Positions 3,929 to 33,665 of a stretch of 64,000 nt of DNA are shown piece by piece (the first letter of the stretch is position 1; each line of letters starts with the position of its first letter). A model generated the notes under the pieces. It was given only the letters and a program-made list of their open reading frames with translations. It searched no databases and was not told the DNA's origin. Position numbers and translations under genes: made by a program. The stretch spans positions 122,835 through 186,834 of the forward strand of contig CAVUCU010000007.1 in assembly GCA_963740085.1 (NCBI GenBank). The letters run 5' to 3'. This DNA comes from Nitrospirota bacterium (GTDB lineage: Bacteria > Nitrospirota > UBA9217).

Positions 3929-4357
3929 TTAAACAAACGAGACCATGCGGGTAGCCGCGGAGAAAACAAATACTCGATCCATATTGGATCCCGGATCGGC
4001 GGGAAAAACAAAGAATCCCGGCCGGCCCGGCTGATAGCCCTGCGTCGTTCCGACCAATTCCTCCCCGTCCTTGAATACCACCTTGATCTTTTTCCCCACA
4101 GCCGGCTTGACCGTGTCGAATGTTCTTTTCTCCTGGTATTGACTATCCCCGTCAAAGTCCTTCACAAAAAATACAGCCTTCAATACGTTGACGTAAACAT
4201 CAAGCGGCTTGGAACCGGCCGGGGCGTCATACGGCAGGAGATGGAAAATGTCCTTGTTGGGCATGAAATTGCTCGTATAACCCTTTGATATGCGGCCGTC
4301 CTGATAACGAACGACGATCTTATTTTGTATCATAACGATCCTTTCTTCAGCTTCCAA
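3929..4357 (-). CDS. uncharacterised conserved protein (142 aa), family A paralog 1
   Basis: It shares motifs with the 160-aa ORF at 30651-31133: 'VVRYQDGRISKGYTSNF', 'LKAVFFVKDFDGDS', 'GFFVFPADPGSNMDRVFVF'. It lies 36 nt downstream of the SRAP gene on the same strand. Confidence 0.6.
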   Translation of the reverse strand: MEAEERIVMIQNKIVVRYQDGRISKGYTSNFMPNKDIFHLLPYDAPAGSKPLDVYVNVLKAVFFVKDFDGDSQYQEKRTFDTVKPAVGKKIKVVFKDGEELVGTTQGYQPGRPGFFVFPADPGSNMDRVFVFSAATRMVSFV

Positions 4358-7281: not shown

Positions 7282-8103
7282 ATGTCTGAAATCTTCGGTT
7301 TCGATGCATTCTCCCCTAAAGAAATCGCTGCGCGGGTCCAAACAATCGGCGTGGTCAAGGCTCGCCTGCCGCTAATTCCCATGCTGATGCTGAGTGTGCT
7401 GGCCGGAGCCTTTATCGCCCTGGGTGCGCTCTACTTTGTGATTGTCAAATCTGACCCCTCCTTGGGCTTTGCCGCCAAACAGGTGCTCGGCGGCGTGACC
7501 TTCTCTTTGGGGTTGATTCTCGTGGTCGTCGCAGGTGCGGAGTTATTCACGGGAAATAATCTGCTGGCGATGGCCTGGGCTGATGGAAAGATTTCCACCC
7601 TCGAGCTGCTGCAGAACTGGGCAATTGTTTGCGTCGGCAATTTTATTGGCGCAGCCGGACTTGCGCTCTTGGTTTTTCTCTCCCATCACCCTGAAATGAA
7701 CAATGGCGAAATTGCACAAGAGTATCTCAGGATTGCCTCAGCCAAGGTCGCCATGCCGTTCTGGACGGCCTTCTTTAAGGGCATCCTCTGTAATGTCCTG
7801 GTGTGCATAGCGGTATGGATGGCGCTTGCCGGACGAAGCGTTATCGATAAGGCTGTGGCAATTATATTTCCCGTGTCTGCTTTCGTTGCGGCAGGCTTCG
7901 AACATAGCGTCGCCAATATGTTCTTTATCCCGCTCGCGATGCTGCTGCAGAACTTCGACAACATAGGAGTGAACTCCAATACCATTACCTGGGTTGGTTT
8001 CTTCGGAAATCTGGTGCCGGTAATACTGGGTAATATTGTCGGCGGCAGCGTTCTGGTTGGATTAGTGTACCACCTCATCTACCGGCAAAAGCGGCATACA
8101 TAA
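7282..8103 (+). CDS. formate/nitrite transporter family protein (FocA/NirC-like)
   Basis: FNT signature regions 'LAGAFIALG', 'VVVAGAELFTGNNL' and 'GNFIGAAGLALLV' are present. Six TM helices are predicted by eye. Confidence 0.85.
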   Translation: MSEIFGFDAFSPKEIAARVQTIGVVKARLPLIPMLMLSVLAGAFIALGALYFVIVKSDPSLGFAAKQVLGGVTFSLGLILVVVAGAELFTGNNLLAMAWADGKISTLELLQNWAIVCVGNFIGAAGLALLVFLSHHPEMNNGEIAQEYLRIASAKVAMPFWTAFFKGILCNVLVCIAVWMALAGRSVIDKAVAIIFPVSAFVAAGFEHSVANMFFIPLAMLLQNFDNIGVNSNTITWVGFFGNLVPVILGNIVGGSVLVGLVYHLIYRQKRHT

Positions 8104-27315: not shown

Positions 27316-28320
27316 ATGTATACCCTCGGAATAGAAACCTCATGCGATGAAACCGCGGCTGCGGTGCTGCAGGACGAAAAGGTACTGTCAAACATAGTAT
27401 CCTCGCAGATCGACATCCACAAAAAATTCGGCGGCGTGGTCCCCGAACTCGCATCACGTGAGCACCTTAAGAACCTGATGCCTGTTATCCGCGAGGCGCT
27501 TACCTCCGCATCGGTTACACTCAAGGACATCAACCTCATCGCGGTCACGTACACGCCCGGCCTGATCGGCGCGCTGCTCGTGGGAGTGTCCGCTGCCAAG
27601 GCCATTGCGTATGCGAGCGGCATCCCCTTCATCGGCGTGCACCACGGTGAAGGGCACATCCTCGCGGCGCATATCGAGTATCCGGGTATCGGTTATCCTT
27701 ACATTGCCCTCCTCGTGTCGGGTGGACATACAGCGATCTACCACGTCAAGGGCCTCGGCGAATACCGTCTCCTTGGCCAGACGCGGGACGACGCAGCGGG
27801 CGAAGCCTATGATAAGGTAGCTAAGCTGCTTGGTCTCGAATACCCCGGCGGTCCGGTGCTCGACAAACTCGCCCAGGAGGGCAATCCAGGGACAGTCAAA
27901 TTTCCACGAGGCCATCTGGAGGGCTGCGACTTCAGCTTCAGCGGGCTCAAGACCGCGGTCAGAAACCACCTTGCCCTCTTCAGGAGCAAAGACAAGGGAC
28001 TCGACCCGGGCCTGAACATCAAGGACATTGCGGCCAGTTTTCAGGCTGCGGTCGTGGACACGCTCGTTAACAAGACCATGCAGGCGGCAAGCGGAACGGG
28101 CGTGGACAAGATCGTGGTTGCCGGCGGCGTGGCTGCGAACAGTCTGCTCCGGAAAAGAATGCTGGATGAAGCGGGGAAGCACGGCGCCACACTCTATCTC
28201 CCGGCTATGGGCCTCTGCATCGACAACGCCGCCATGATCGCCCTCGCGGGATATCTCCACCATCAACGCGGCGAGAACTCAAACCTTGACCTGAATCCCC
28301 GACCCGGCATGCCGCTGTGA
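27316..28320 (+). CDS. tsaD: tRNA N6-adenosine threonylcarbamoyltransferase TsaD
   Basis: 'MYTLGIETSCDETAAAVL', 'GVHHGEGH' and 'VAGGVAAN' are present. Confidence 0.9.
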   Translation: MYTLGIETSCDETAAAVLQDEKVLSNIVSSQIDIHKKFGGVVPELASREHLKNLMPVIREALTSASVTLKDINLIAVTYTPGLIGALLVGVSAAKAIAYASGIPFIGVHHGEGHILAAHIEYPGIGYPYIALLVSGGHTAIYHVKGLGEYRLLGQTRDDAAGEAYDKVAKLLGLEYPGGPVLDKLAQEGNPGTVKFPRGHLEGCDFSFSGLKTAVRNHLALFRSKDKGLDPGLNIKDIAASFQAAVVDTLVNKTMQAASGTGVDKIVVAGGVAANSLLRKRMLDEAGKHGATLYLPAMGLCIDNAAMIALAGYLHHQRGENSNLDLNPRPGMPL

Positions 28321-28330
28321 ATTATTCTCA
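28284..28330. repeat. direct repeat L (attL-like): last 37 nt of tsaD plus 10 nt downstream
   Basis: 43 of 47 nt match 31882-31928. Confidence 0.6.
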
Positions 28331-28685
28331 CATAGGCTGTTTGAAAACACCTAATTTATTCGCGCACTGCCACAATGCCATTTTCTTGTCGTGCGGTGCT
28401 GAGATTTTACCAACTTCACCTACTAGTCCGCAATTGCAGATAGACGAAACTATCGTTAAATACGGATTGTAAAGTGCACACATCGCCCGTAAATTTTTTT
28501 CATCTTTTGCGTCGAATGCCGTCCGCCGTATTGGCGCTAGTCGCGGTATCCTTCCGATGTCTGGTCTGTTCGAAGCTTGTCAGATCCGAAGAGCGGAAGT
28601 CGGTAGGATAGCACGTATACAACTATTCAAGCTCTCTGTTTGATACAACAAGGGAAGTCGCCCAGCCGCCGGGCAACCGAGGTTG

Positions 28686-29555
28686 TTAAGAGGTGGTTGA
28701 TGACAAATTCAAGATCTTGGATTTCACTACATTTTTACCGGTTTCCCTGGCCGAATTCATAAGATCTTCGGCCATAGCGATCAGTTCATCTAATGTGCAT
28801 GTCGGGCCGTCGCAGGTAACGACACCTGTACTGAATGCTACCGGCCAGCCCTTTTTTTTCACCATATCCAGAAGACGTTCCTGAACTTTATAAATGATAA
28901 CCGTGGCGTTCTCATTATTTGTTTCCGGCATAAGAACAGCGAATTTGGAACCCCCAAGTCTCGAAATTATATCTGTGAGCCGCAATGTTGACCCCATGAT
29001 CTGGGCTAATTCATGGAGGAGGTAATCGCCTGCAATATGGCCGAGGGTGTCATTTACCTGTCGTAAATTATCTATATCGATATATGCTAGAGTGAGAGGT
29101 AGTTTAGATATAGTCGATCTGCTGATTTCAATACGTGCCTGCTCATAAAAGAATTTGATATTAGCTACGCCCGTCAAATCGTCGGTGTCGGCATGTTCAT
29201 GTTCCTTTATCAATGATTTTTTTAAGGTTGCAATGGAATAGGCAACGATTAAAAACATACTTAGCACCAGTGTGGCGTTCCAAATGCGAACAGTGATATG
29301 AGAATAATTATGTCCAGACATCAGGTCAGACGTTGCCCAGGTGATAGCACTGAAAATTGATACCAGGACGGTAGGCATTCCTCCCACGTACCAAGCGATC
29401 AGTATGATGGGAAGAAGATAGAGCACATCTAGGGAAATATCATAGCTCGCTATAGTATCAAGACCGCCGATTGCCAATACGAGGAGCAATCCGAAAATCG
29501 TAAGAATTGATTTTGGGAGTTTTTCAGGGAATTCTATGATTTTCTTTATCCGCAT
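28686..29555 (-). CDS. membrane-anchored GGDEF-domain protein with degenerate active site (GGSKF) and intact RxxD I-site
   Basis: Four to five N-terminal TM helices are present. The GGDEF fold has 'RLTDIISRLGGSKFAVLM' (RxxD-xxx-RLGG then S-K-F in place of D/E-E-F). GC content is lower than the flanks. Confidence 0.8.
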   Translation of the reverse strand: MRIKKIIEFPEKLPKSILTIFGLLLVLAIGGLDTIASYDISLDVLYLLPIILIAWYVGGMPTVLVSIFSAITWATSDLMSGHNYSHITVRIWNATLVLSMFLIVAYSIATLKKSLIKEHEHADTDDLTGVANIKFFYEQARIEISRSTISKLPLTLAYIDIDNLRQVNDTLGHIAGDYLLHELAQIMGSTLRLTDIISRLGGSKFAVLMPETNNENATVIIYKVQERLLDMVKKKGWPVAFSTGVVTCDGPTCTLDELIAMAEDLMNSARETGKNVVKSKILNLSSTTS

Positions 29556-29792
29556 AACAGCCGATGCTTGCAGTGGTAGATAATATTAAATGATCTTCTT
29601 TGGCCCGCCCTGTAAGCTAGACCTCGGGTAACGGGATGAGCATTTTCTGTAAAATAGCACTCATCCTTATAGCTATTATTTCTTTGCAGATAATAGCTTA
29701 TGCCTATAAAAATTACTAGTTGAACTATGTACATGAATAGCGTGTTGAAAAAGTACAGGTTACAGGACGTTATATATGCTGCACTCTTCACG

Positions 29793-30593
29793 TTAGGTTC
29801 GACCCTCTGGTTGTTCACCTTCTCGTGCGACGCTGTTTTTCATTCTTACCCACTGGTCTATGAACGTTTGGAGCAACGTTTTATCCTTGTCCGTCAGATC
29901 GACAAACTCCGACCCTATATCATAGTGTGTTTGCCCCTTGTTTTCCTTCATGTGGCATGAAGCAATTCGTCCGATAAAATTGACCGCGGTGCCATCATTC
30001 AGAGACAATTCCATGGGGACCTTGCTTTCTATTGCCAGAGCCTGATCAGTCTGGATGAGCATGCCGCTGAGACTGATTGTTTTCACATTAAAATTCGCGG
30101 GATAGCTCAAAACATGCTCATTCAGACCGGTAATTTGAAATCTGACATTGAGCCTCCGCTCCTCCGGTAATGGCGCTTTTTCTTTTTGGTTTTGCACTAT
30201 TGATTTAAGAAAATCGGCGACCTGATCCGCTGAGCTCTCTTTAAACTGCATGCCTACAGCGTATATGGAGACACTTTCCCCGTTGTCTCTTGCCTCTATT
30301 CCCTTGAGCTCGGAACGGACTATAATGCCCGTTACATTGAGAGTCTTCCCTTTATCCTGGAGCTTGATCGTATATTCCCTGCCGGGATTCAGTCTCCGGT
30401 CCGATTTCAAGGCAACTCCGCCGAGACCGATATCAAGGATCTCCACTTTATCGGATAAACTCATCTTGCCCTTTAAGTCATTTAACTCCAGGTAGTATCT
30501 TTTATGTCGTCTCGTGTTGTTCATGATAGGTTTCTTCTCAATTGACAAGTTGTCAGAATACTCATTCTGAGAGCTCATGTCTACAAAAGCCAT
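29793..30593 (-). CDS. tandem PilZ-domain protein
   Basis: PilZ 1 has 'RRHKR' (RxxxR) and 'DIGLGGVAL'. PilZ 2 has 'RRLNVR' and 'ISLSGML' (partly degenerate). Confidence 0.75.
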   Translation of the reverse strand: MAFVDMSSQNEYSDNLSIEKKPIMNNTRRHKRYYLELNDLKGKMSLSDKVEILDIGLGGVALKSDRRLNPGREYTIKLQDKGKTLNVTGIIVRSELKGIEARDNGESVSIYAVGMQFKESSADQVADFLKSIVQNQKEKAPLPEERRLNVRFQITGLNEHVLSYPANFNVKTISLSGMLIQTDQALAIESKVPMELSLNDGTAVNFIGRIASCHMKENKGQTHYDIGSEFVDLTDKDKTLLQTFIDQWVRMKNSVAREGEQPEGRT

Positions 30594-30650
30594 GGATTAC
30601 TCCTGGCTTAATCAGTCTTGACCTGCGCAATCTATTCATGGTTCCATCCC

Positions 30651-31133
30651 TTACGTCATGATCGTGACGTTTTCGATCGCGCTCCCCACGACAAAGACCC
30701 TTTTGTTATTGCTATCTTCGTCAACGGGGATGAGGAAAAACCCCTTGGCCCCCTTGCCCAGCTTGGATAGGGAAAACCCCTTGTCCCAGGGGATCTCACC
30801 CTCGATGAACCCGACCAGCGATTCTTTATCGATGAACTTAACAAAAACCTTTCGGCCAAGGTTCTTCCTGCTCCCGAAAACCTTCCGTTCGACATATCGA
30901 CTGGAGCCCTCAAAGCTCTTGACGAAAAAAATCGCCTTCAGCTCTTCCATCGGGACGCGGTTTTCCTTGTTTGTCTGGTCACTCATGATGAGCGTGTCCG
31001 ATTCTATACTGAAATTTCTCACGAAGCCCTTCAAAAGTCTTCCGTCCCTGAACCTGGCGACGATCTTTTCTCCTTCATTATTTTTCAAACAGTCACCTCC
31101 GGAGCACCGATTAATTGTTCCCAGGATACTCAA
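30651..31133 (-). CDS. uncharacterised conserved protein (160 aa), family A paralog 2
   Basis: It shares motif blocks with the 3929-4357 product ('VARFRDGRLLKGFVRNF', 'LKAIFFVKSFEGSS', 'GFFLIPVDEDSNNKRVFVV'). Confidence 0.6.
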   Translation of the reverse strand: MSILGTINRCSGGDCLKNNEGEKIVARFRDGRLLKGFVRNFSIESDTLIMSDQTNKENRVPMEELKAIFFVKSFEGSSRYVERKVFGSRKNLGRKVFVKFIDKESLVGFIEGEIPWDKGFSLSKLGKGAKGFFLIPVDEDSNNKRVFVVGSAIENVTIMT

Positions 31134-31145
31134 TCTGGGAATAAT

Positions 31146-31481
31146 TCAACCAACAAACCGGCCAAGCAGTATATCCTCAAGATTGCGTCTTGCATCGAGG
31201 ACGGCGAGAACATATACAGTTTGGCCGGATATTCTGCAAATCATTCTCCAGGGGGCAATGATTATTTCCCGATAGAGAATAATGCCCTGTTCCTTCAACT
31301 CAGGCACAACAACGCGGCCTCTTTCCGGCAGGACATGCAAGCCAACCGCCTTCTTGCGCATTCTTTCCACTATCTTCAGCGCCTCATCGATACTGTCTTC
31401 GGCGATAAATCCGATGATTGAATCCAAATCATACTCAGCGGTGGCCGTCCATTTGACGGTAAAGTTACGACTCATCGGCAT
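31146..31481 (-). CDS. ParE/RelE-family type II toxin
   Basis: The approximately 110-aa product has a ParE-like composition ('WTATAEYDLDSI', 'ERGRVVVPELKEQGII'). It overlaps the upstream Phd/YefM gene by 17 nt. Confidence 0.65.
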   Translation of the reverse strand: MPMSRNFTVKWTATAEYDLDSIIGFIAEDSIDEALKIVERMRKKAVGLHVLPERGRVVVPELKEQGIILYREIIIAPWRMICRISGQTVYVLAVLDARRNLEDILLGRFVG

Positions 31482-31764
31482 TTCGCTGTTTCCTGGCCTT
31501 CAGCTTGTGCTCAAGACGTTTGAAAATATCCTCCTGTTCACTGGTCCTTCCAAGACGAATATCCTCTTCTCCCTGAGCAAGGACCTTCATCAAACCTATT
31601 GCGGACTTCATGCGCTCATACGATTCAGGGTCTTGCAGAACGGCGCGTGGTTCCCCGTTTTGCGTGATAATGACCGGCCTGTGCGTTTCATTGATCTGCA
31701 GCAATATATCCGCGGCCTTTGATTTGAGATACGTCACGGGTCGAATGTCTTCACTGATTTTCAT
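31465..31764 (-). CDS. Phd/YefM-family antitoxin
   Basis: 'MKISEDIRPVTYLKSKAADILLQINETHRPVIITQNGEPRAVL' is the Phd/YefM fold signature. The ORF-track start at 31833 is an over-extension. Confidence 0.75.
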   Translation of the reverse strand: MKISEDIRPVTYLKSKAADILLQINETHRPVIITQNGEPRAVLQDPESYERMKSAIGLMKVLAQGEEDIRLGRTSEQEDIFKRLEHKLKARKQRNADES

Positions 31765-31881
31765 TCTCCACCTCCTGTCCGAATAACGTACCATAAAAGG
31801 TCCTTTAACGCAAGCGGCTTTTTCGGTCATCAAATGACTTTACGCCCATGGGTTAAACTTTAAGCGTGGCGATATCTCCAG

Positions 31882-31928
31882 CCTTGACCTGAACCCCCGC
31901 CCCAGCATGCCGCTGTGAGTTATTCTCA
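31882..31928. repeat. direct repeat R (attR-like): diverged copy of the tsaD 3' end
   Basis: 91% identical to 28284-28330. It would encode ...LDLNPRPSMPL* in the tsaD frame. Confidence 0.6.
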
Positions 31929-32273
31929 ATTAATGCAAAATAGTTCTTGCTATTCCCTCATAATACTGTATTATGCACGTCGACTGTTTAACATTGCGGC
32001 AGGATTTGACTGAAGTACACACACACGTCATCATCTCTCTGCCCTTCATATCATCGATCTCTAACCCCCCTTGTTTTCAGCCCCCGCTCTGAAATCACAG
32101 CAGCACGTATGGTTGGCGAACGATGTAGTTATGCCGGTCATATTTGTGCTGGCGTCGTCTTCGCTCTCAGGGATACCTTTGTGCCCCTGCGGCCCGCACG
32201 CAAACCCTTAACGGGATTTCTGTTTCCGGAATGAATATATCTTCATTTCGGCGTAAGAGATCAAAGGAGTCGT

Positions 32274-33665
32274 ATGTCTTTTTCAAAATTGCAGCTCATC
32301 GAACCGATCCTGAAAGCAATAAAACTGTGCGGCTACACCACGCCCACGCCCATCCAGGAGCAGGCTATTCCCAAGGCACTGGCGGGTCAAGACCTGATCG
32401 CAACAGCCCAGACCGGGACCGGCAAAACCGCGGCCTTCGTGTTGCCGGCGCTCCAGCGTTTGAGCGTACCCTCCATAGCAGCGGGACGGTCCAAAGGACC
32501 CCGCGTACTCGTACTGACACCCACGCGCGAACTGGCCAATCAGATAACCGAGGCGGTCAGAACCTACGGCAAGTTCATGCGCATCCGGAGCGGCGCGATC
32601 CTCGGCGGCATGCCCTACTTCGAACAGCAGCGTCTTCTGTCCCAGCCGGTGGATCTGATCGTAGCCACACCCGGACGTCTCATGGACCATATGGAGCGGG
32701 GACAGATCAATTTCTCGCGCCTCGAACTGCTCGTGCTCGATGAGGCTGATCGCATGCTCGACATGGGATTCAGCGAGGCAGTGGACACCATCGCGGCCGC
32801 GACCCCGGCCACGCGCCAGACCATGATGTTCACCGCAACCATGGACAATTCGATGGCTAGGCTTGCCCAGCGTCTGCTCAAGGACCCGGTACGGGTCGAG
32901 ATCGCCGGCAAGAAGACCACCCTTGAAACGATCGAACAGCGCCTTCACGCGGCCGACGACATGCAGCATAAGAACCGCATGCTCAAACACCTGATCTCGG
33001 ACAGCGGCATGACCAGGGCGATCATCTTCTCGGGCACCAAACGAAACGCCGACCAGCTGGCGAACGAACTGCACGCCCAGGGCCACTCAGCCGCGGCGCT
33101 GCACGGCGACATGAGCCAGAACGCCCGCAACCGCACCATCATGAACATGAAGCGCGGCAAGATCCGGCTGCTCGTTGCAACAGACGTGGCCGCACGCGGG
33201 CTTGACGTCATCGGCATCACCCATATCATCAATTACGACCTTCCGAAGAATGCCGAGGACTACGTACATCGCATCGGTCGCACCGGGCGTGCAGGTGCAA
33301 CAGGCATCGCCATCTCCTTCGCGTCGTCCAGGGAAGTGGACTCCCTGCGCAGTATCGAACGCTATATCGGACAAAGCATTCCCCAGCAGATCATTGCGGG
33401 ACTGGAACCGGCGCGCCCCTTACGCCGGTCAAGCAGCGGGGGCAGTCCGACGCCGTCATCGGGGAAACGATGGCAGGGCGCCTCGACCGGCAAACGGTAT
33501 GGCCAGAACGCCGCACCCCGAAGTCCCTTTGGTTCGAAAACCACCCGTCGCTCGGATTCTGATGGCCGATTCTTCAGAGACGAGAAGAAGAGTGTCAAGC
33601 AGGATGGCGGGAAGTTTGGGGATTTCCGCAAGCCAAAGCAATACAGTCAGAGCCGGTGGACCTAG
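32274..33665 (+). CDS. DEAD-box ATP-dependent RNA helicase (RhlE-like) with basic C-terminal tail
   Basis: Q-motif, 'AQTGTGKT', 'PTRELA', 'DEAD', 'SAT' and 'HRIGRTGRAG' are present. Confidence 0.9.
   Translation: MSFSKLQLIEPILKAIKLCGYTTPTPIQEQAIPKALAGQDLIATAQTGTGKTAAFVLPALQRLSVPSIAAGRSKGPRVLVLTPTRELANQITEAVRTYGKFMRIRSGAILGGMPYFEQQRLLSQPVDLIVATPGRLMDHMERGQINFSRLELLVLDEADRMLDMGFSEAVDTIAAATPATRQTMMFTATMDNSMARLAQRLLKDPVRVEIAGKKTTLETIEQRLHAADDMQHKNRMLKHLISDSGMTRAIIFSGTKRNADQLANELHAQGHSAAALHGDMSQNARNRTIMNMKRGKIRLLVATDVAARGLDVIGITHIINYDLPKNAEDYVHRIGRTGRAGATGIAISFASSREVDSLRSIERYIGQSIPQQIIAGLEPARPLRRSSSGGSPTPSSGKRWQGASTGKRYGQNAAPRSPFGSKTTRRSDSDGRFFRDEKKSVKQDGGKFGDFRKPKQYSQSRWT

What the first reader, a model, noticed from the sequence alone, without database searches (positions are those of the whole stretch)
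28686..29555. GGDEF protein with dead A-site (GGSKF) but intact I-site (RLTD): likely c-di-GMP receptor rather than cyclase
In the sequence R-L-T-D-I-I-S-R-L-G-G-S-K-F, the catalytic GG(D/E)EF is replaced by GGSKF. The acidic metal/substrate residues are lost. The inhibitory-site RxxD sits exactly 3 residues upstream of RLGG, as in canonical diguanylate cyclases. By analogy with PopA/PelD-type degenerate GGDEFs, this membrane protein probably binds c-di-GMP. It is encoded beside a tandem-PilZ protein on the island, giving a possible two-receptor relay.
Basis: partly seen in the sequence, partly recalled or inferred. Interest (0 to 1): 0.6.

Follow-up and report, generated by a model that had tools for sequence, protein, structure and literature searches.

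The report
Dead membrane GGDEF, probable c-di-GMP sensor
This gene encodes a membrane protein descended from enzymes that make the bacterial signal c-di-GMP; it has lost the catalytic residues but kept the signal-binding pocket, so it is probably a sensor, a known kind of protein, here carried on a small inserted gene islet.

Summary
ORF 28686-29555 (-) encodes a 289-aa protein with a 4-helix membrane module (weak DUF4118 match) joined by one continuous helix to a full-length GGDEF domain. Alignments to solved cyclases place GGSKF on GG(D/E)EF and RLTD on the RxxD inhibitory site at canonical spacing.

More than 100 Nitrospirota homologues (55-100% identity) all lack the first acidic residue (GG[A/S][K/E/R/Q]F). 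Relatives with the same membrane module, as close as 53% identity, have intact GGDEF plus RxxD. The clade is therefore a pseudo-cyclase offshoot, under purifying selection (dN/dS about 0.3).

"Not a cyclase" is well supported. "c-di-GMP receptor through the I-site" is plausible but untested:
- RxxD is 95-96% conserved in the gene's own K-type subclade.
- It is half lost in a GGAEF subclade.
- The bridging arginine (WspR R198 equivalent) has become the domain's most variable position.
- The guanine-pocket residues (N168, D177) are more conserved than the I-site.

The "island" is real: a 3.6-kb low-GC insertion at the tsaD 3' end, bracketed by 64-nt direct repeats and absent from sister genomes. 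The tandem-PilZ neighbour recurs in only 3 of about 41 loci, so a relay is weakly supported. This is a new member of a known kind, of modest interest.

The parts
28686..29555 (-). Whole ORF, 289 aa: 4-TM module, stalk helix and degenerate GGDEF domain
   Evidence: ORF list. The same gene is called on ENA/NCBI contigs. 120 homologues were retrieved.
29202..29507 (-). N-terminal membrane module (about residues 17-118), four helices, DUF4118-like. Motifs conserved within this clade are WYEGG, SGHxYSH and WN; W55, W92, N93, D33, D77, Y46, P49 and Y84 are also shared with the active-cyclase relatives.
   Evidence: Pfam DUF4118 scores 26.3 bits, below the 28.4 cut-off. AF2 helices are 15-35, 43-56, 60-79 and 87-125. 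The module search found 3021 representative proteins.
28731..29192 (-). GGDEF domain (residues 122-275), canonical fold
   Evidence: Pfam and NCBIfam. PDB phmmer. AF2 mean pLDDT 80.5, and Foldseek matches to GcbC, PleD, WspR and DosC with rmsd 2.0-2.7 A over about 150-160 columns.
28941..28955 (-). Degenerate A-site motif G201-G202-S203-K204-F205, in place of GG(D/E)EF
   Evidence: Gapless alignments. Clade-wide, position 203 is A67/S39/D2 and position 204 is K76/E18/R7/Q6. Active relatives have 100% D and 100% E.
28971..28982 (-). Primary I-site motif R192-L-T-D195 (RxxD), five residues before GG
   Evidence: alignments. Across the 108 full-length members R is 88% and D is 85%. In the K-type subclade (76 sequences) they are 95% and 96%. 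Four synonymous Arg codons are used.
28887..28889 (-). K223, equivalent of PleD R390 (third residue of the primary I-site)
   Evidence: Alignment to PleD numbering. K is 72% clade-wide and 80% in the K-type subclade. Active relatives have R 51%, with most of the remainder K.
29025..29054 (-). Guanine-pocket residues of the former A-site: N168 (PleD N335, nt 29052-29054) and D177 (PleD D344, nt 29025-29027)
   Evidence: N168 is kept in 108 of 108 and D177 in 107 of 108 members.
29109..29111 (-). I149, position of WspR R198 (the trans-acting I-site arginine), lost
   Evidence: Mapped through the 9t28 WspR alignment. R is 95% in active relatives. In the degenerate clade this is the most variable domain position, rank 154 of 154. 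Role of R198: PMC2270323.
29562..29767 (-). Conserved non-coding leader upstream of the gene, including 'GCATCGAA-N4/5-ATG' and 'CCGGAGGTCTAACTTACAGGGCGGGC'
   Evidence: blastn identity of 72-89% to the leaders of L007, L013 and L014, which have different neighbours. No conserved ORF. No Rfam hit.
28480..28685 (-). Conserved non-coding trailer downstream of the stop codon
   Evidence: 70-73% identity to L007, L008, L009 and L010 in three different contexts. No conserved ORF. Only a weak consensus structure. It starts at the breakpoint with sister genome L054.
29793..30593 (-). Tandem-PilZ protein, 266 aa, upstream on the same strand with a 237-nt gap
   Evidence: Pfam PilZ, 2 stretches. The N-terminal domain has RRHKR plus DIGLGG (DISLGG in homologues). 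The C-terminal domain has RLNVR plus TISLSG (read). Homologues sit upstream of the family gene in L023 and L053.
30651..31133 (-). DUF6982 protein (160 aa from TTG; the ENA gene call starts at 31088, giving 145 aa)
   Evidence: Pfam PF22478, E=3.7e-26. Gene call. It lies beside the family gene only in this genome.
31146..31833 (-). phd/yefM-parE type II toxin-antitoxin pair (parE 31146-31481; phd 31465-31833, or from 31764 in the ENA call)
   Evidence: Pfam. Shared with sister genome L054 at 95-100% protein identity.
28267..28330 (+). Direct repeat copy 1, which is the 3' end of tsaD (stop codon ends at 28320); left boundary of the islet
   Evidence: the repeat finder family D1, 64 nt, 86% identity, spacing 3598 nt. 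The breakpoint with L055 is at 28313/28314.
31865..31928 (+). Direct repeat copy 2, a displaced pseudo-3' end of tsaD (reads RGDISSLDLNPRPSMPL*); right boundary of the islet
   Evidence: Homology with L055 resumes at 31936.

Best explanation
The gene encodes a catalytically dead, membrane-anchored GGDEF pseudo-cyclase. It belongs to a Nitrospirota clade that evolved from active 4-TM diguanylate cyclases by replacing the two metal-binding or catalytic acidic residues (GGDEF to GG[S/A]K F).

The most likely mechanism is as follows. The protein sits in the inner membrane, probably as a dimer like its cyclase relatives (inferred). The GGDEF domain lies in the cytoplasm, on a stalk helix continuous with TM4. 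It can no longer make c-di-GMP. It retains the primary inhibitory-site pocket (R192, D195, K223) and uses it to bind c-di-GMP made by other enzymes. Occupancy would change the packing of the GGDEF domains on the stalk, and hence the state or partnerships of the conserved 4-TM module. That would make it a PelD- or PopA-style effector.

In this genome it is an accessory gene on a 3.6-kb islet inserted at the 3' end of tsaD. It is probably co-expressed with, and possibly acts with, the adjacent tandem-PilZ c-di-GMP receptor.

Shown here: domain architecture, motif positions, loss of catalytic residues across the clade, purifying selection, the islet boundaries and its absence from sister genomes.

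Inferred: c-di-GMP binding, the direction of signalling, and any PilZ partnership.
For: Motif positions come from gapless alignments to solved cyclases and HMMs. The fold is canonical and TM4 is continuous with the stalk helix (H87-125).

No clade member has the canonical acidic pair: position 203 is A/S in 106 of 108. Relatives with the same membrane module have GGDEF in 44 of 49 and RxxD in 47 of 49. The nearest, P0130, is 53% identical and reads 'RSTDIISRLGGDEFAVLMP'.

Other catalytic positions are relaxed only in the clade: D160 falls from 100% to 68%, and K165, Y267 and K270 also relax. GGAEF point mutants are dead (PMC3229569).

The domain is still constrained: dN/dS is 0.33 for the GGDEF part against 0.28 for the TM part.

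In the GG(S/A)KF subclade, RxxD is 95-96% conserved, K223 is 80% and D160 is 86%. R192 is kept through four different Arg codons. A GGAAF WspR mutant still binds c-di-GMP at the I-site (PMC2270323). Degenerate GGDEF I-site receptors are an established class (papers listed; PelD).

For the islet: a GC dip to 39-50%, 64-nt direct repeats, and sister genomes lacking the block. Tandem PilZ recurs upstream in L023 and L053, in otherwise unrelated contexts.
Against: No binding data exist and no ligand modelling was possible. RxxD is inherited from active ancestors. It is only in the upper third of conserved positions (ranks 37-44 of 154). It is lost in about half of the GGAEF subclade, which otherwise keeps the membrane module and the domain, so the family's core function may not need it.

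The WspR R198-equivalent is the most variable site. WspR R198A purifies nucleotide-free, so affinity may be reduced. K223 replaces the usual Arg.

The former A-site's guanine pocket (N168 100%, D177 99%, R199 99%) is more conserved than the I-site, which points to a ligand at the A-site instead.

No conserved operon partner identifies an output. The window protein has V57 where 96% of the clade has E.
Confidence: 0.5

Rival explanations
1. The former A-site, not the I-site, is the ligand sensor. The guanine pocket (N168, D177, R199) still binds a guanine nucleotide: GTP, GDP, pGpG or one half of c-di-GMP. K204 replaces Mg2+ in neutralising the phosphates. The protein would then report GTP or nucleotide status to the membrane module, like the GTP-sensing degenerate GGDEF of PdeA/CC3396 (from my own knowledge of that system).
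For: N168 is kept in 108 of 108, D177 in 107 of 108 and R199 in 107 of 108 members, more conserved than RxxD, and they persist in the GGAEF subclade that lost RxxD. Position 204 is a positive residue (K or R) in 83 of 108. The K442/R446 equivalents remain basic, as R270 and K274 in the window protein.
Against: N, D and R may be kept for folding of the alpha1-alpha2/beta2 core. Metal ligands are lost: D160 is only 68% conserved clade-wide and E370 is gone. GTP binding in GGDEF domains normally needs Mg2+. WspR data indicate low affinity of c-di-GMP for the active site. No precedent was found for a Lys-substituted A-site binding nucleotide; a search for GGSKF and GGAKF found nothing relevant.
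Confidence: 0.17
2. It is a ligand-independent regulatory subunit. Through the shared 4-TM module and stalk it forms heterodimers with active paralogous cyclases of the same family. A dead half-site would poison or gate their activity, as a dominant-negative or scaffold.
For: Active relatives share the same membrane module with many invariant residues: D33, Y46, P49, W55, W73, D77, Y84, W92, N93 and F101. GGDEF catalysis requires two competent protomers (established mechanism, from my own knowledge). The TM module is at least as conserved as the GGDEF domain. The module also exists as a stand-alone protein in L015.
Against: No active paralogue lies in this 64-kb window, and co-occurrence in the same genomes was not tested. 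A pure decoy would not need 95% RxxD conservation or an invariant guanine pocket.
Confidence: 0.15
3. It is still an enzyme, either a diguanylate cyclase with a non-canonical motif or a catalyst of different chemistry.
For: Some degenerate motifs are active: AGDEF in VCA0965 (PMC3974145). D160, D162 and the nucleotide-contacting residues are present in the window protein.
Against: The tolerated case changes motif position 1, not the acidic pair. A single D/E-to-A change at position 3 abolishes activity. Here both acidic residues are gone, and the K332, Y439 and K442 equivalents are relaxed across the clade.
Confidence: 0.05
4. It is a decaying remnant, an islet passenger with no function.
For: It sits on a variable islet with a toxin-antitoxin pair. 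dN/dS of about 0.3 is rather high for a bacterial gene. L013 carries a frameshifted copy.
Against: More than 100 intact homologues of constant length (283-291 aa) were found down to 55% identity. Many columns are invariant. dN/dS is well below 1 in both halves. The leader and trailer are conserved.
Confidence: 0.03

Closest known systems
PelD (Pseudomonas aeruginosa / Bacillus cereus Pel polysaccharide c-di-GMP receptor)
   Same: [quoted passage not shown] It is also an inner-membrane effector rather than an enzyme.
   Different: PelD has a GAF domain between the two modules, where this protein has only a stalk helix. There is no PelD-type GGDEF Pfam hit and no PelD among the PDB sequence hits. 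No pel genes are nearby. The nearest relatives of this protein are active cyclases, not PelD.
PopA (Caulobacter), SgmT (Myxococcus), CdgA/Bd3125 (Bdellovibrio), PssE (Listeria): degenerate-GGDEF I-site receptors
   Same: All have a dead A-site and a retained RxxD that is used as the c-di-GMP receptor site (papers retrieved; details from my own knowledge).
   Different: They differ in input domains (REC, histidine kinase, or none) and are mostly soluble. Each has a defined partner or pathway, whereas here no output is known.
Active membrane diguanylate cyclases with the same 4-TM module (e.g. P0130, P0241, P0173; uncharacterised)
   Same: They share the length (about 280-300 aa), the membrane module, the stalk, the RxxD and a near-identical beta-hairpin around the motif. 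P0130 is 53% identical.
   Different: They keep GGDEF, D327-equivalent, K332-equivalent, Y439-equivalent, K442-equivalent and the R198-equivalent arginine. The window protein's clade has lost or relaxed all of these.
FimX-PilZ-PilB module of Xanthomonas (degenerate GGDEF-EAL receptor working with a PilZ protein)
   Same: It is a precedent for a degenerate c-di-GMP-turnover-domain receptor acting physically together with a PilZ protein (from my own knowledge). It bears on the GGDEF-PilZ adjacency seen in the window, L023 and L053.
   Different: FimX binds c-di-GMP through its EAL domain, and its PilZ partner does not bind c-di-GMP. Here there is no EAL domain, and the N-terminal PilZ domain has a near-canonical binding motif.

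Membership tests
GGDEF domain superfamily (PF00990 / TIGR00254) | Full-length HMM match above the curated cut-off | tested here: met
   Pfam scores 107 bits against a cut-off of 23.8, covering profile positions 1-160 of 161. TIGR00254 scores 112 bits against 37.4.
GGDEF domain superfamily (PF00990 / TIGR00254) | Palm-like alpha/beta fold of diguanylate cyclases | tested here: met
   The AF2 model has pLDDT 80.5. Foldseek matches GcbC 5euh (rmsd 2.0 A over 151 columns) and PleD 2wb4 (2.4 A over 161).
Catalytically active diguanylate cyclase | GG(D/E)EF with both acidic residues (PleD E370, E371) | tested here: not met
   S203 and K204 occupy these positions. No clade member has the canonical motif. 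GGAEF mutants are inactive (PMC3229569).
Catalytically active diguanylate cyclase | Metal-binding and phosphate-binding residues (PleD D327, K332, K442, R446) | tested here: inconclusive
   D160 is present. K332 is replaced by R165, K442 by R270 and R446 by K274 in the window protein. These positions are relaxed clade-wide, while they are 97-100% conserved in active relatives, except the R446 equivalent, which is K in 92% of them.
Catalytically active diguanylate cyclase | Guanine-specifying residues (PleD N335, D344) | tested here: met
   N168 and D177 are invariant or nearly so.
I-site (RxxD) c-di-GMP receptors with degenerate GGDEF (PelD/PopA type) | RxxD five residues upstream of the (degenerate) GGDEF motif | tested here: met
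   R192-L-T-D195, then IISRL, then GGSKF. It is 95-96% conserved in the K-type subclade.
I-site (RxxD) c-di-GMP receptors with degenerate GGDEF (PelD/PopA type) | Additional basic residue completing the primary I-site (PleD R390 / PelD R402 equivalent) | tested here: inconclusive
   K223 is Lys rather than Arg. It is 72-80% conserved.
I-site (RxxD) c-di-GMP receptors with degenerate GGDEF (PelD/PopA type) | Measured c-di-GMP binding that depends on RxxD | not testable with these tools
   This needs DRaCALA, ITC or MST on purified protein, or ligand-aware structure modelling.
PelD family | Central GAF domain between the membrane module and GGDEF | tested here: not met
   Only about 10 residues of helix link TM4 to the domain. 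There is no GAF hit.
PelD family | Location in a pel (pelA-G) operon | tested here: not met
   The neighbours are PilZ, DUF6982, parE/phd and tsaD. Other loci have unrelated neighbours.
PelD family | DUF4118-type 4-TM N-terminal module | tested here: inconclusive
   PF13493 scores 26.3 bits, just below its 28.4 cut-off. It is listed as a precomputed hit for many clade members. Four helices are predicted.
PilZ c-di-GMP receptor (the neighbour, 29793-30593) | RxxxR and (D/N)xSxxG motifs | tested here: inconclusive
   Two PilZ stretches are found. The N-terminal domain has RRHKR plus DIGLGG, with S replaced by G here and canonical DISLGG in L023 and L053. The C-terminal domain has RLNVR plus TISLSG, lacking the D/N.
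Integrated genomic islet | Flanking direct repeats duplicating the target, deviant composition, and an empty or alternative site in relatives | tested here: met
   64-nt direct repeats at 28267-28330 and 31865-31928. GC is 39-50% against 57-62% in the flanks. L055 has vapBC at this site, and L054 lacks the GGDEF-PilZ-DUF6982 block. No integrase lies inside.

The most novel reading that the evidence does not exclude
The GG(S/A)KF clade may be a new type of membrane pseudo-cyclase. In it a lysine would replace the catalytic Mg2+ site, so that the invariant guanine pocket binds a guanine nucleotide without metal. The signal would be coupled to a conserved 4-TM module bearing a His/Asp/Tyr-rich outer-face motif (SGHxYSH, D33, D77). 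The gene also travels between Nitrospirota genomes as a cassette with its own conserved leader and trailer of about 200 nt each. These could be a new cis-regulatory RNA, sometimes accompanied by a tandem-PilZ partner.
Probability: 0.12. Interest if true: 0.6.

Novelty: new member of a known kind. Interest (0 to 1): 0.3.

Why it matters
Degenerate GGDEF proteins are common, and several are proven c-di-GMP receptors, so the basic idea is not surprising.

What this case adds is a clean natural experiment. A whole clade (more than 100 sequences) of membrane cyclases has switched off catalysis by the same two substitutions. Close active relatives (53% identity) are available as controls, and a sister subclade has additionally lost the I-site. 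That set could show which residues a GGDEF domain needs to act as a receptor rather than an enzyme.

It also shows c-di-GMP signalling parts (a pseudo-cyclase and a tandem PilZ protein) moving as accessory cargo on small toxin-antitoxin islets in uncultured Nitrospirota. Almost nothing is known about second-messenger signalling in that group.

Tried and rejected
- **Intact GGDEF motif elsewhere in the protein:** none found.
- **Known riboswitch or RNA family in the leader or trailer:** no Rfam hit at gathering threshold over the whole window. Only a spurious mir-15 hit appeared at E<=1 in 28200-32300.
- **Small conserved ORFs in the leader or trailer:** stop codons fall in every frame in different loci. 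The 90-aa ORF 29546-29818 is not conserved.
- **Consensus RNA structure:** RNAalifold gives no consensus for the leader. For the trailer it gives only a weak one with no covariation bonus. The single-sequence fold has z=-1.8. A possible CUUACAG/CUGUAAG pairing, with some compensatory changes (CCUACAG/CUGUAGG in L008 and L024), was seen by eye only.
- **Universally conserved operon partner:** none found.
- **Anti-phage defence system:** no PADLOC hits for any of the five islet proteins.
- **tRNA as integration target:** none found. The target is the tsaD 3' end.
- **Sigma-70 promoter or terminator in the PilZ-GGDEF gap:** the consensus scan was uninformative.
- **PelD membership:** rejected (no GAF domain, no pel genes).
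- **ImcA (8wcn), the top Foldseek hit:** the match is carried by the GGDEF domain and generic helices (TM-score 0.49, rmsd 8.9 A). It is not evidence of a shared sensor module.
- **DUF6982:** no literature. The second paralogue in the window lies next to SRAP and LexA rather than PilZ or GGDEF genes, so no DUF6982-c-di-GMP link could be made.
Full report
**1. The observation.**
An ATG-initiated ORF of 289 codons occupies exactly 28686-29555 on the minus strand. The same gene is called on the public contigs that carry this sequence (ENA ERZ25039463 contig_79659). Pfam and NCBIfam place a full-length GGDEF domain at residues 122-275 (E=1e-30 and 2e-32). A sub-threshold DUF4118 match covers residues 19-120 (26.3 bits against a cut-off of 28.4).

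phmmer alignments to solved diguanylate cyclases run without gaps through the motif region. DgcR reads 'RKSDIISRFGGEEF', and GcbC and WspR agree, against the query 'RLTDIISRLGGSKF'. GGSKF (residues 201-205) therefore sits on GG(D/E)EF. RLTD (192-195) sits on the RxxD inhibitory site at the canonical five-residue spacing. There is no second GG..F motif.

**2. The protein.**
An AlphaFold2 model built on 108 homologues has mean pLDDT 80.5. It shows an amphipathic N-terminal helix, then four membrane helices (15-35, 43-56, 60-79, 87-...). The last helix continues unbroken to residue 125 as a stalk that enters a canonical GGDEF fold. Foldseek finds GcbC, PleD, WspR and DosC at 2.0-2.7 A rmsd.

With the basic N-terminus inside, the GGDEF domain is cytoplasmic. 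The two short outer loops carry the conserved D33/D39/S41 and D77/SGHxYSH residues (the topology is inferred).

**3. The family.**
A search of 5.8 billion proteins returned 120 homologues at 55-100% identity. Nearly all are 283-291 aa, and almost all that carry a name come from Nitrospirota MAGs, with one labelled Alphaproteobacteria and one Betaproteobacteria.

In the 108 full-length members:
- Motif position 3 is Ala (67) or Ser (39), and Asp only twice (both in aberrant TADEF motifs).
- Position 4 is Lys 76, Glu 18, Arg 7 or Gln 6.

I then searched 1.84 billion cluster representatives with the membrane module alone (residues 1-120). There were 3021 hits at E<=1e-3. Among the best 150, 60 carry a GGDEF domain. 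Of those with a complete domain, 44 read GGDEF, 2 read AGDEF and only 2 are degenerate. RxxD is present in 47 of 49.

The nearest such relative, P0130, is 53% identical over 269 residues. It reads 'RSTDIISRLGGDEFAVLMPDTN' against the window's 'RLTDIISRLGGSKFAVLMPETN'. The window protein therefore belongs to a pseudo-enzyme clade that arose inside a family of apparently ordinary, product-inhibited membrane cyclases.

**4. What was lost and what was kept.**
I compared 108 clade members with 39 active relatives column by column.

Positions 95-100% conserved in the more diverse active set but relaxed in the narrower degenerate clade (PleD numbering recalled from memory and checked against the known residue identities):
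- D160 (PleD D327), falling from 100% to 68%
- F164 and K165 (K332)
- D203 and E204 (E370, E371)
- D263, Y267 and K270 (K442)
- Position 149

Position 149 aligns with WspR R198 (mapped through the 9t28 alignment). It is Arg in 95% of active relatives. In the clade it is the single most variable position of the domain, rank 154 of 154. In WspR this arginine completes the I-site in trans, and R198A purifies nucleotide-free (PMC2270323).

Kept: N168 (108 of 108), D177 (107), R199 (107), both glycines and F205.

RxxD falls from 100% to 88% (R) and 85% (D) overall, but the loss is concentrated:
- In the 76 sequences with Lys at motif position 4, which include the window protein, R is 95% and D is 96%, ranks 44 and 37 of 154.
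- In the GGAEF subclade they are 50% and 44%, and D160 is 33%.

At the DNA level, R192 is encoded by four different Arg codons in 26 distinct genes. Pairwise dN/dS is about 0.33 for the GGDEF part and 0.28 for the membrane part. The dead domain is therefore still under selection, to the same degree as the sensor module.

**5. Reading of the function.**
Loss of cyclase activity is the safest inference. A single GG(D/E)EF-to-GGAEF change abolishes activity in Salmonella STM4551 (PMC3229569). Here both acidic residues are replaced, and further catalytic residues have drifted.

The receptor idea is reasonable for three reasons:
- A GGAAF WspR mutant still binds c-di-GMP at its I-site.
- The primary I-site trio (R192, D195, K223) is present and well kept in the protein's own subclade.
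- Degenerate GGDEF I-site receptors are an established class. PelD even shares a DUF4118 four-helix membrane module (PMC7890745).

The evidence is not decisive. RxxD is ancestral and only moderately conserved. One subclade dispenses with it while keeping everything else. The trans arginine is gone. The most strictly conserved polar residues are those of the former A-site's guanine pocket.

My probabilities:
- About 0.5 for an I-site c-di-GMP effector
- About 0.17 for an A-site guanine-nucleotide sensor, in which K204 substitutes for the metal
- About 0.15 for a ligand-independent partner or decoy of active paralogues that share the membrane module
- About 0.05 for residual enzymatic activity
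- About 0.03 for a functionless remnant

**6. Genomic setting.**
The five minus-strand genes are the GGDEF gene, tandem PilZ, DUF6982, parE and phd. They form a low-GC block (39-50% against 57-62% in the flanks).

The block is bracketed by a 64-nt direct repeat of 86% identity. One copy is the 3' end of tsaD (28267-28330). The other (31865-31928) is a displaced copy that still reads RGDISSLDLNPRPSMPL*.

Three sister genomes have TsaD 90-93% identical and the same upstream synteny. Between tsaD and the DEAD-box helicase, or beyond tsaD, they differ:
- L055 has only a vapBC-type pair. Homology breaks at 28313/28314 and resumes at 31936.
- L054 has the same parE-phd pair (95-100% protein identity) but a different 1.6-kb segment in place of 28464-31140, the GGDEF-PilZ-DUF6982 block.
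- L056 has an ABC transporter and a PIN/MazE pair.

It is a nested, strain-specific insertion at a tsaD-3' hotspot, with no integrase of its own.

**7. The PilZ neighbour and the 'relay'.**
Across about 41 loci with the family gene, falling into roughly 13 neighbourhood groups, no neighbour is general. Examples include SelB/MFS, Opp permease/YceG, a spermidine-synthase fusion and an NtrC-type regulator.

The tandem-PilZ protein is the one neighbour that recurs in otherwise unrelated contexts:
- In L023 it lies directly upstream (PilZ 51% identical, 180-nt gap, with a tyrosine-recombinase-like gene nearby).
- In L053 it lies 1.4 kb upstream (75% identical).

Its N-terminal domain has RxxxR plus DxSxxG (DIGLGG in the window, DISLGG in the two homologues). 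The C-terminal domain lacks the D/N. This gives weak support for a functional link in a minority of genomes. It is no evidence for a relay mechanism.

**8. Conserved flanks.**
The gene carries conserved non-coding sequence on both sides wherever it sits:
- About 205 nt upstream (29562-29767), 72-89% identical to L007, L013 and L014. A 'GCATCGAA-N4/5-ATG' box is kept even in loci whose farther leader differs.
- About 205 nt downstream (28480-28685), 70-73% identical to L007-L010.

Neither flank encodes a conserved peptide, matches Rfam or gives a convincing consensus fold. The gene is 42-45% GC in hosts of 48-55%. The trailer begins at the L054 breakpoint. Together this suggests that the gene moves as a cassette with its own regulatory RNA or DNA. 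I could not resolve what these elements do.

**9. Verdict.**
The protein is dead as a cyclase (strong). It is a c-di-GMP receptor via the I-site (plausible, about 0.5). The PilZ relay is weak.
- It is a new, uncharacterised member of a known kind: degenerate GGDEF pseudo-cyclases or effectors. It is closest in architecture to PelD without the GAF domain, and closest in descent to active 4-TM cyclases.
- Interest is modest. The clade-level natural experiment, the mobile-islet context and the unexplained conserved flanks are the parts worth following up.

Noticed in passing
window 28267-28330 and 31865-31928 (+); L054, L055, L056: A 64-nt direct repeat (86% identity) duplicates the 3' end of tsaD and brackets the 3.6-kb five-gene islet. 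Sister genomes carry different toxin-antitoxin cargo at the same spot: vapBC in L055, parE-phd without the GGDEF/PilZ/DUF6982 block in L054, and ABC plus PIN in L056. The tsaD 3' end is therefore an integration hotspot in this Nitrospirota lineage. No integrase lies within the islet.
   Followed up: yes
window 29562-29767 (-) and 28480-28685 (-); leaders and trailers of L007-L014 and L017-L053: Non-coding blocks of about 205 nt on each side of the gene are conserved (70-89%) between loci with unrelated neighbours. They include a near-universal 'GCATCGAA' box 4-5 nt before the ATG, with no obvious Shine-Dalgarno sequence at the normal distance, and a GGAGG-containing block about 70 nt upstream. 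There is no conserved ORF, no Rfam family and no clear consensus fold.
   Followed up: partly
L008, L009, L010 upstream of position 8001: The leader of the family gene carries an internal tandem duplication of about 130-180 nt in this synteny group (blastn self-offset hits).
   Followed up: no
L015 8001-8384: The 4-TM module occurs as a stand-alone 127-aa protein, 50% identical to the window's N-terminal half. It lies just downstream of a LytS-like histidine kinase and a LytTR response regulator. About a third of the best module hits are short (under 200 aa) proteins without a GGDEF domain.
   Followed up: no
window 29385-29387 (-), residue 57: The window protein has Val where 96% of the degenerate clade has Glu (WYEGG motif at the cytoplasmic end of TM2). 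This Glu is specific to the degenerate clade and is variable in active relatives.
   Followed up: no
window 3929-4357 (-): A second DUF6982 paralogue (37% identical to the islet copy) lies next to an SOS-response-associated peptidase-like ORF and a LexA-like ORF (my reading of the translations; not HMM-tested), with no PilZ or GGDEF gene nearby. DUF6982 has no literature.
   Followed up: partly
L013 8001-8871 and its leader: The closest genomic homologue (87% identity over residues 71-289) is frameshifted near codon 71. Its leader carries a 90-nt insertion with CRISPR-repeat-like or REP-like GC-rich palindromes. This may be a long-read assembly error or a real pseudogene.
   Followed up: no
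family gene in WIN and L007-L014: The gene is 42-45% GC in every host (hosts 48-55%). Pairwise dS is low (median 0.49) for the amount of amino-acid change (dN 0.155), giving dN/dS of about 0.3. This is consistent with repeated lateral spread among Nitrospirota or with constraint on synonymous sites.
   Followed up: partly
L023 709-1335 (-): A tyrosine-recombinase-like ORF (my reading of the translation; not HMM-tested) lies 2.8 kb upstream of the PilZ-GGDEF pair in this metagenome contig. This hints that the pair is on a mobile element there too.
   Followed up: no
window 32101-32151 (+): A sub-threshold Rfam mir-15 hit (25.5 bits against a gathering score of 57.3) lies upstream of the DEAD-box helicase gene. 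It is almost certainly chance.
   Followed up: no
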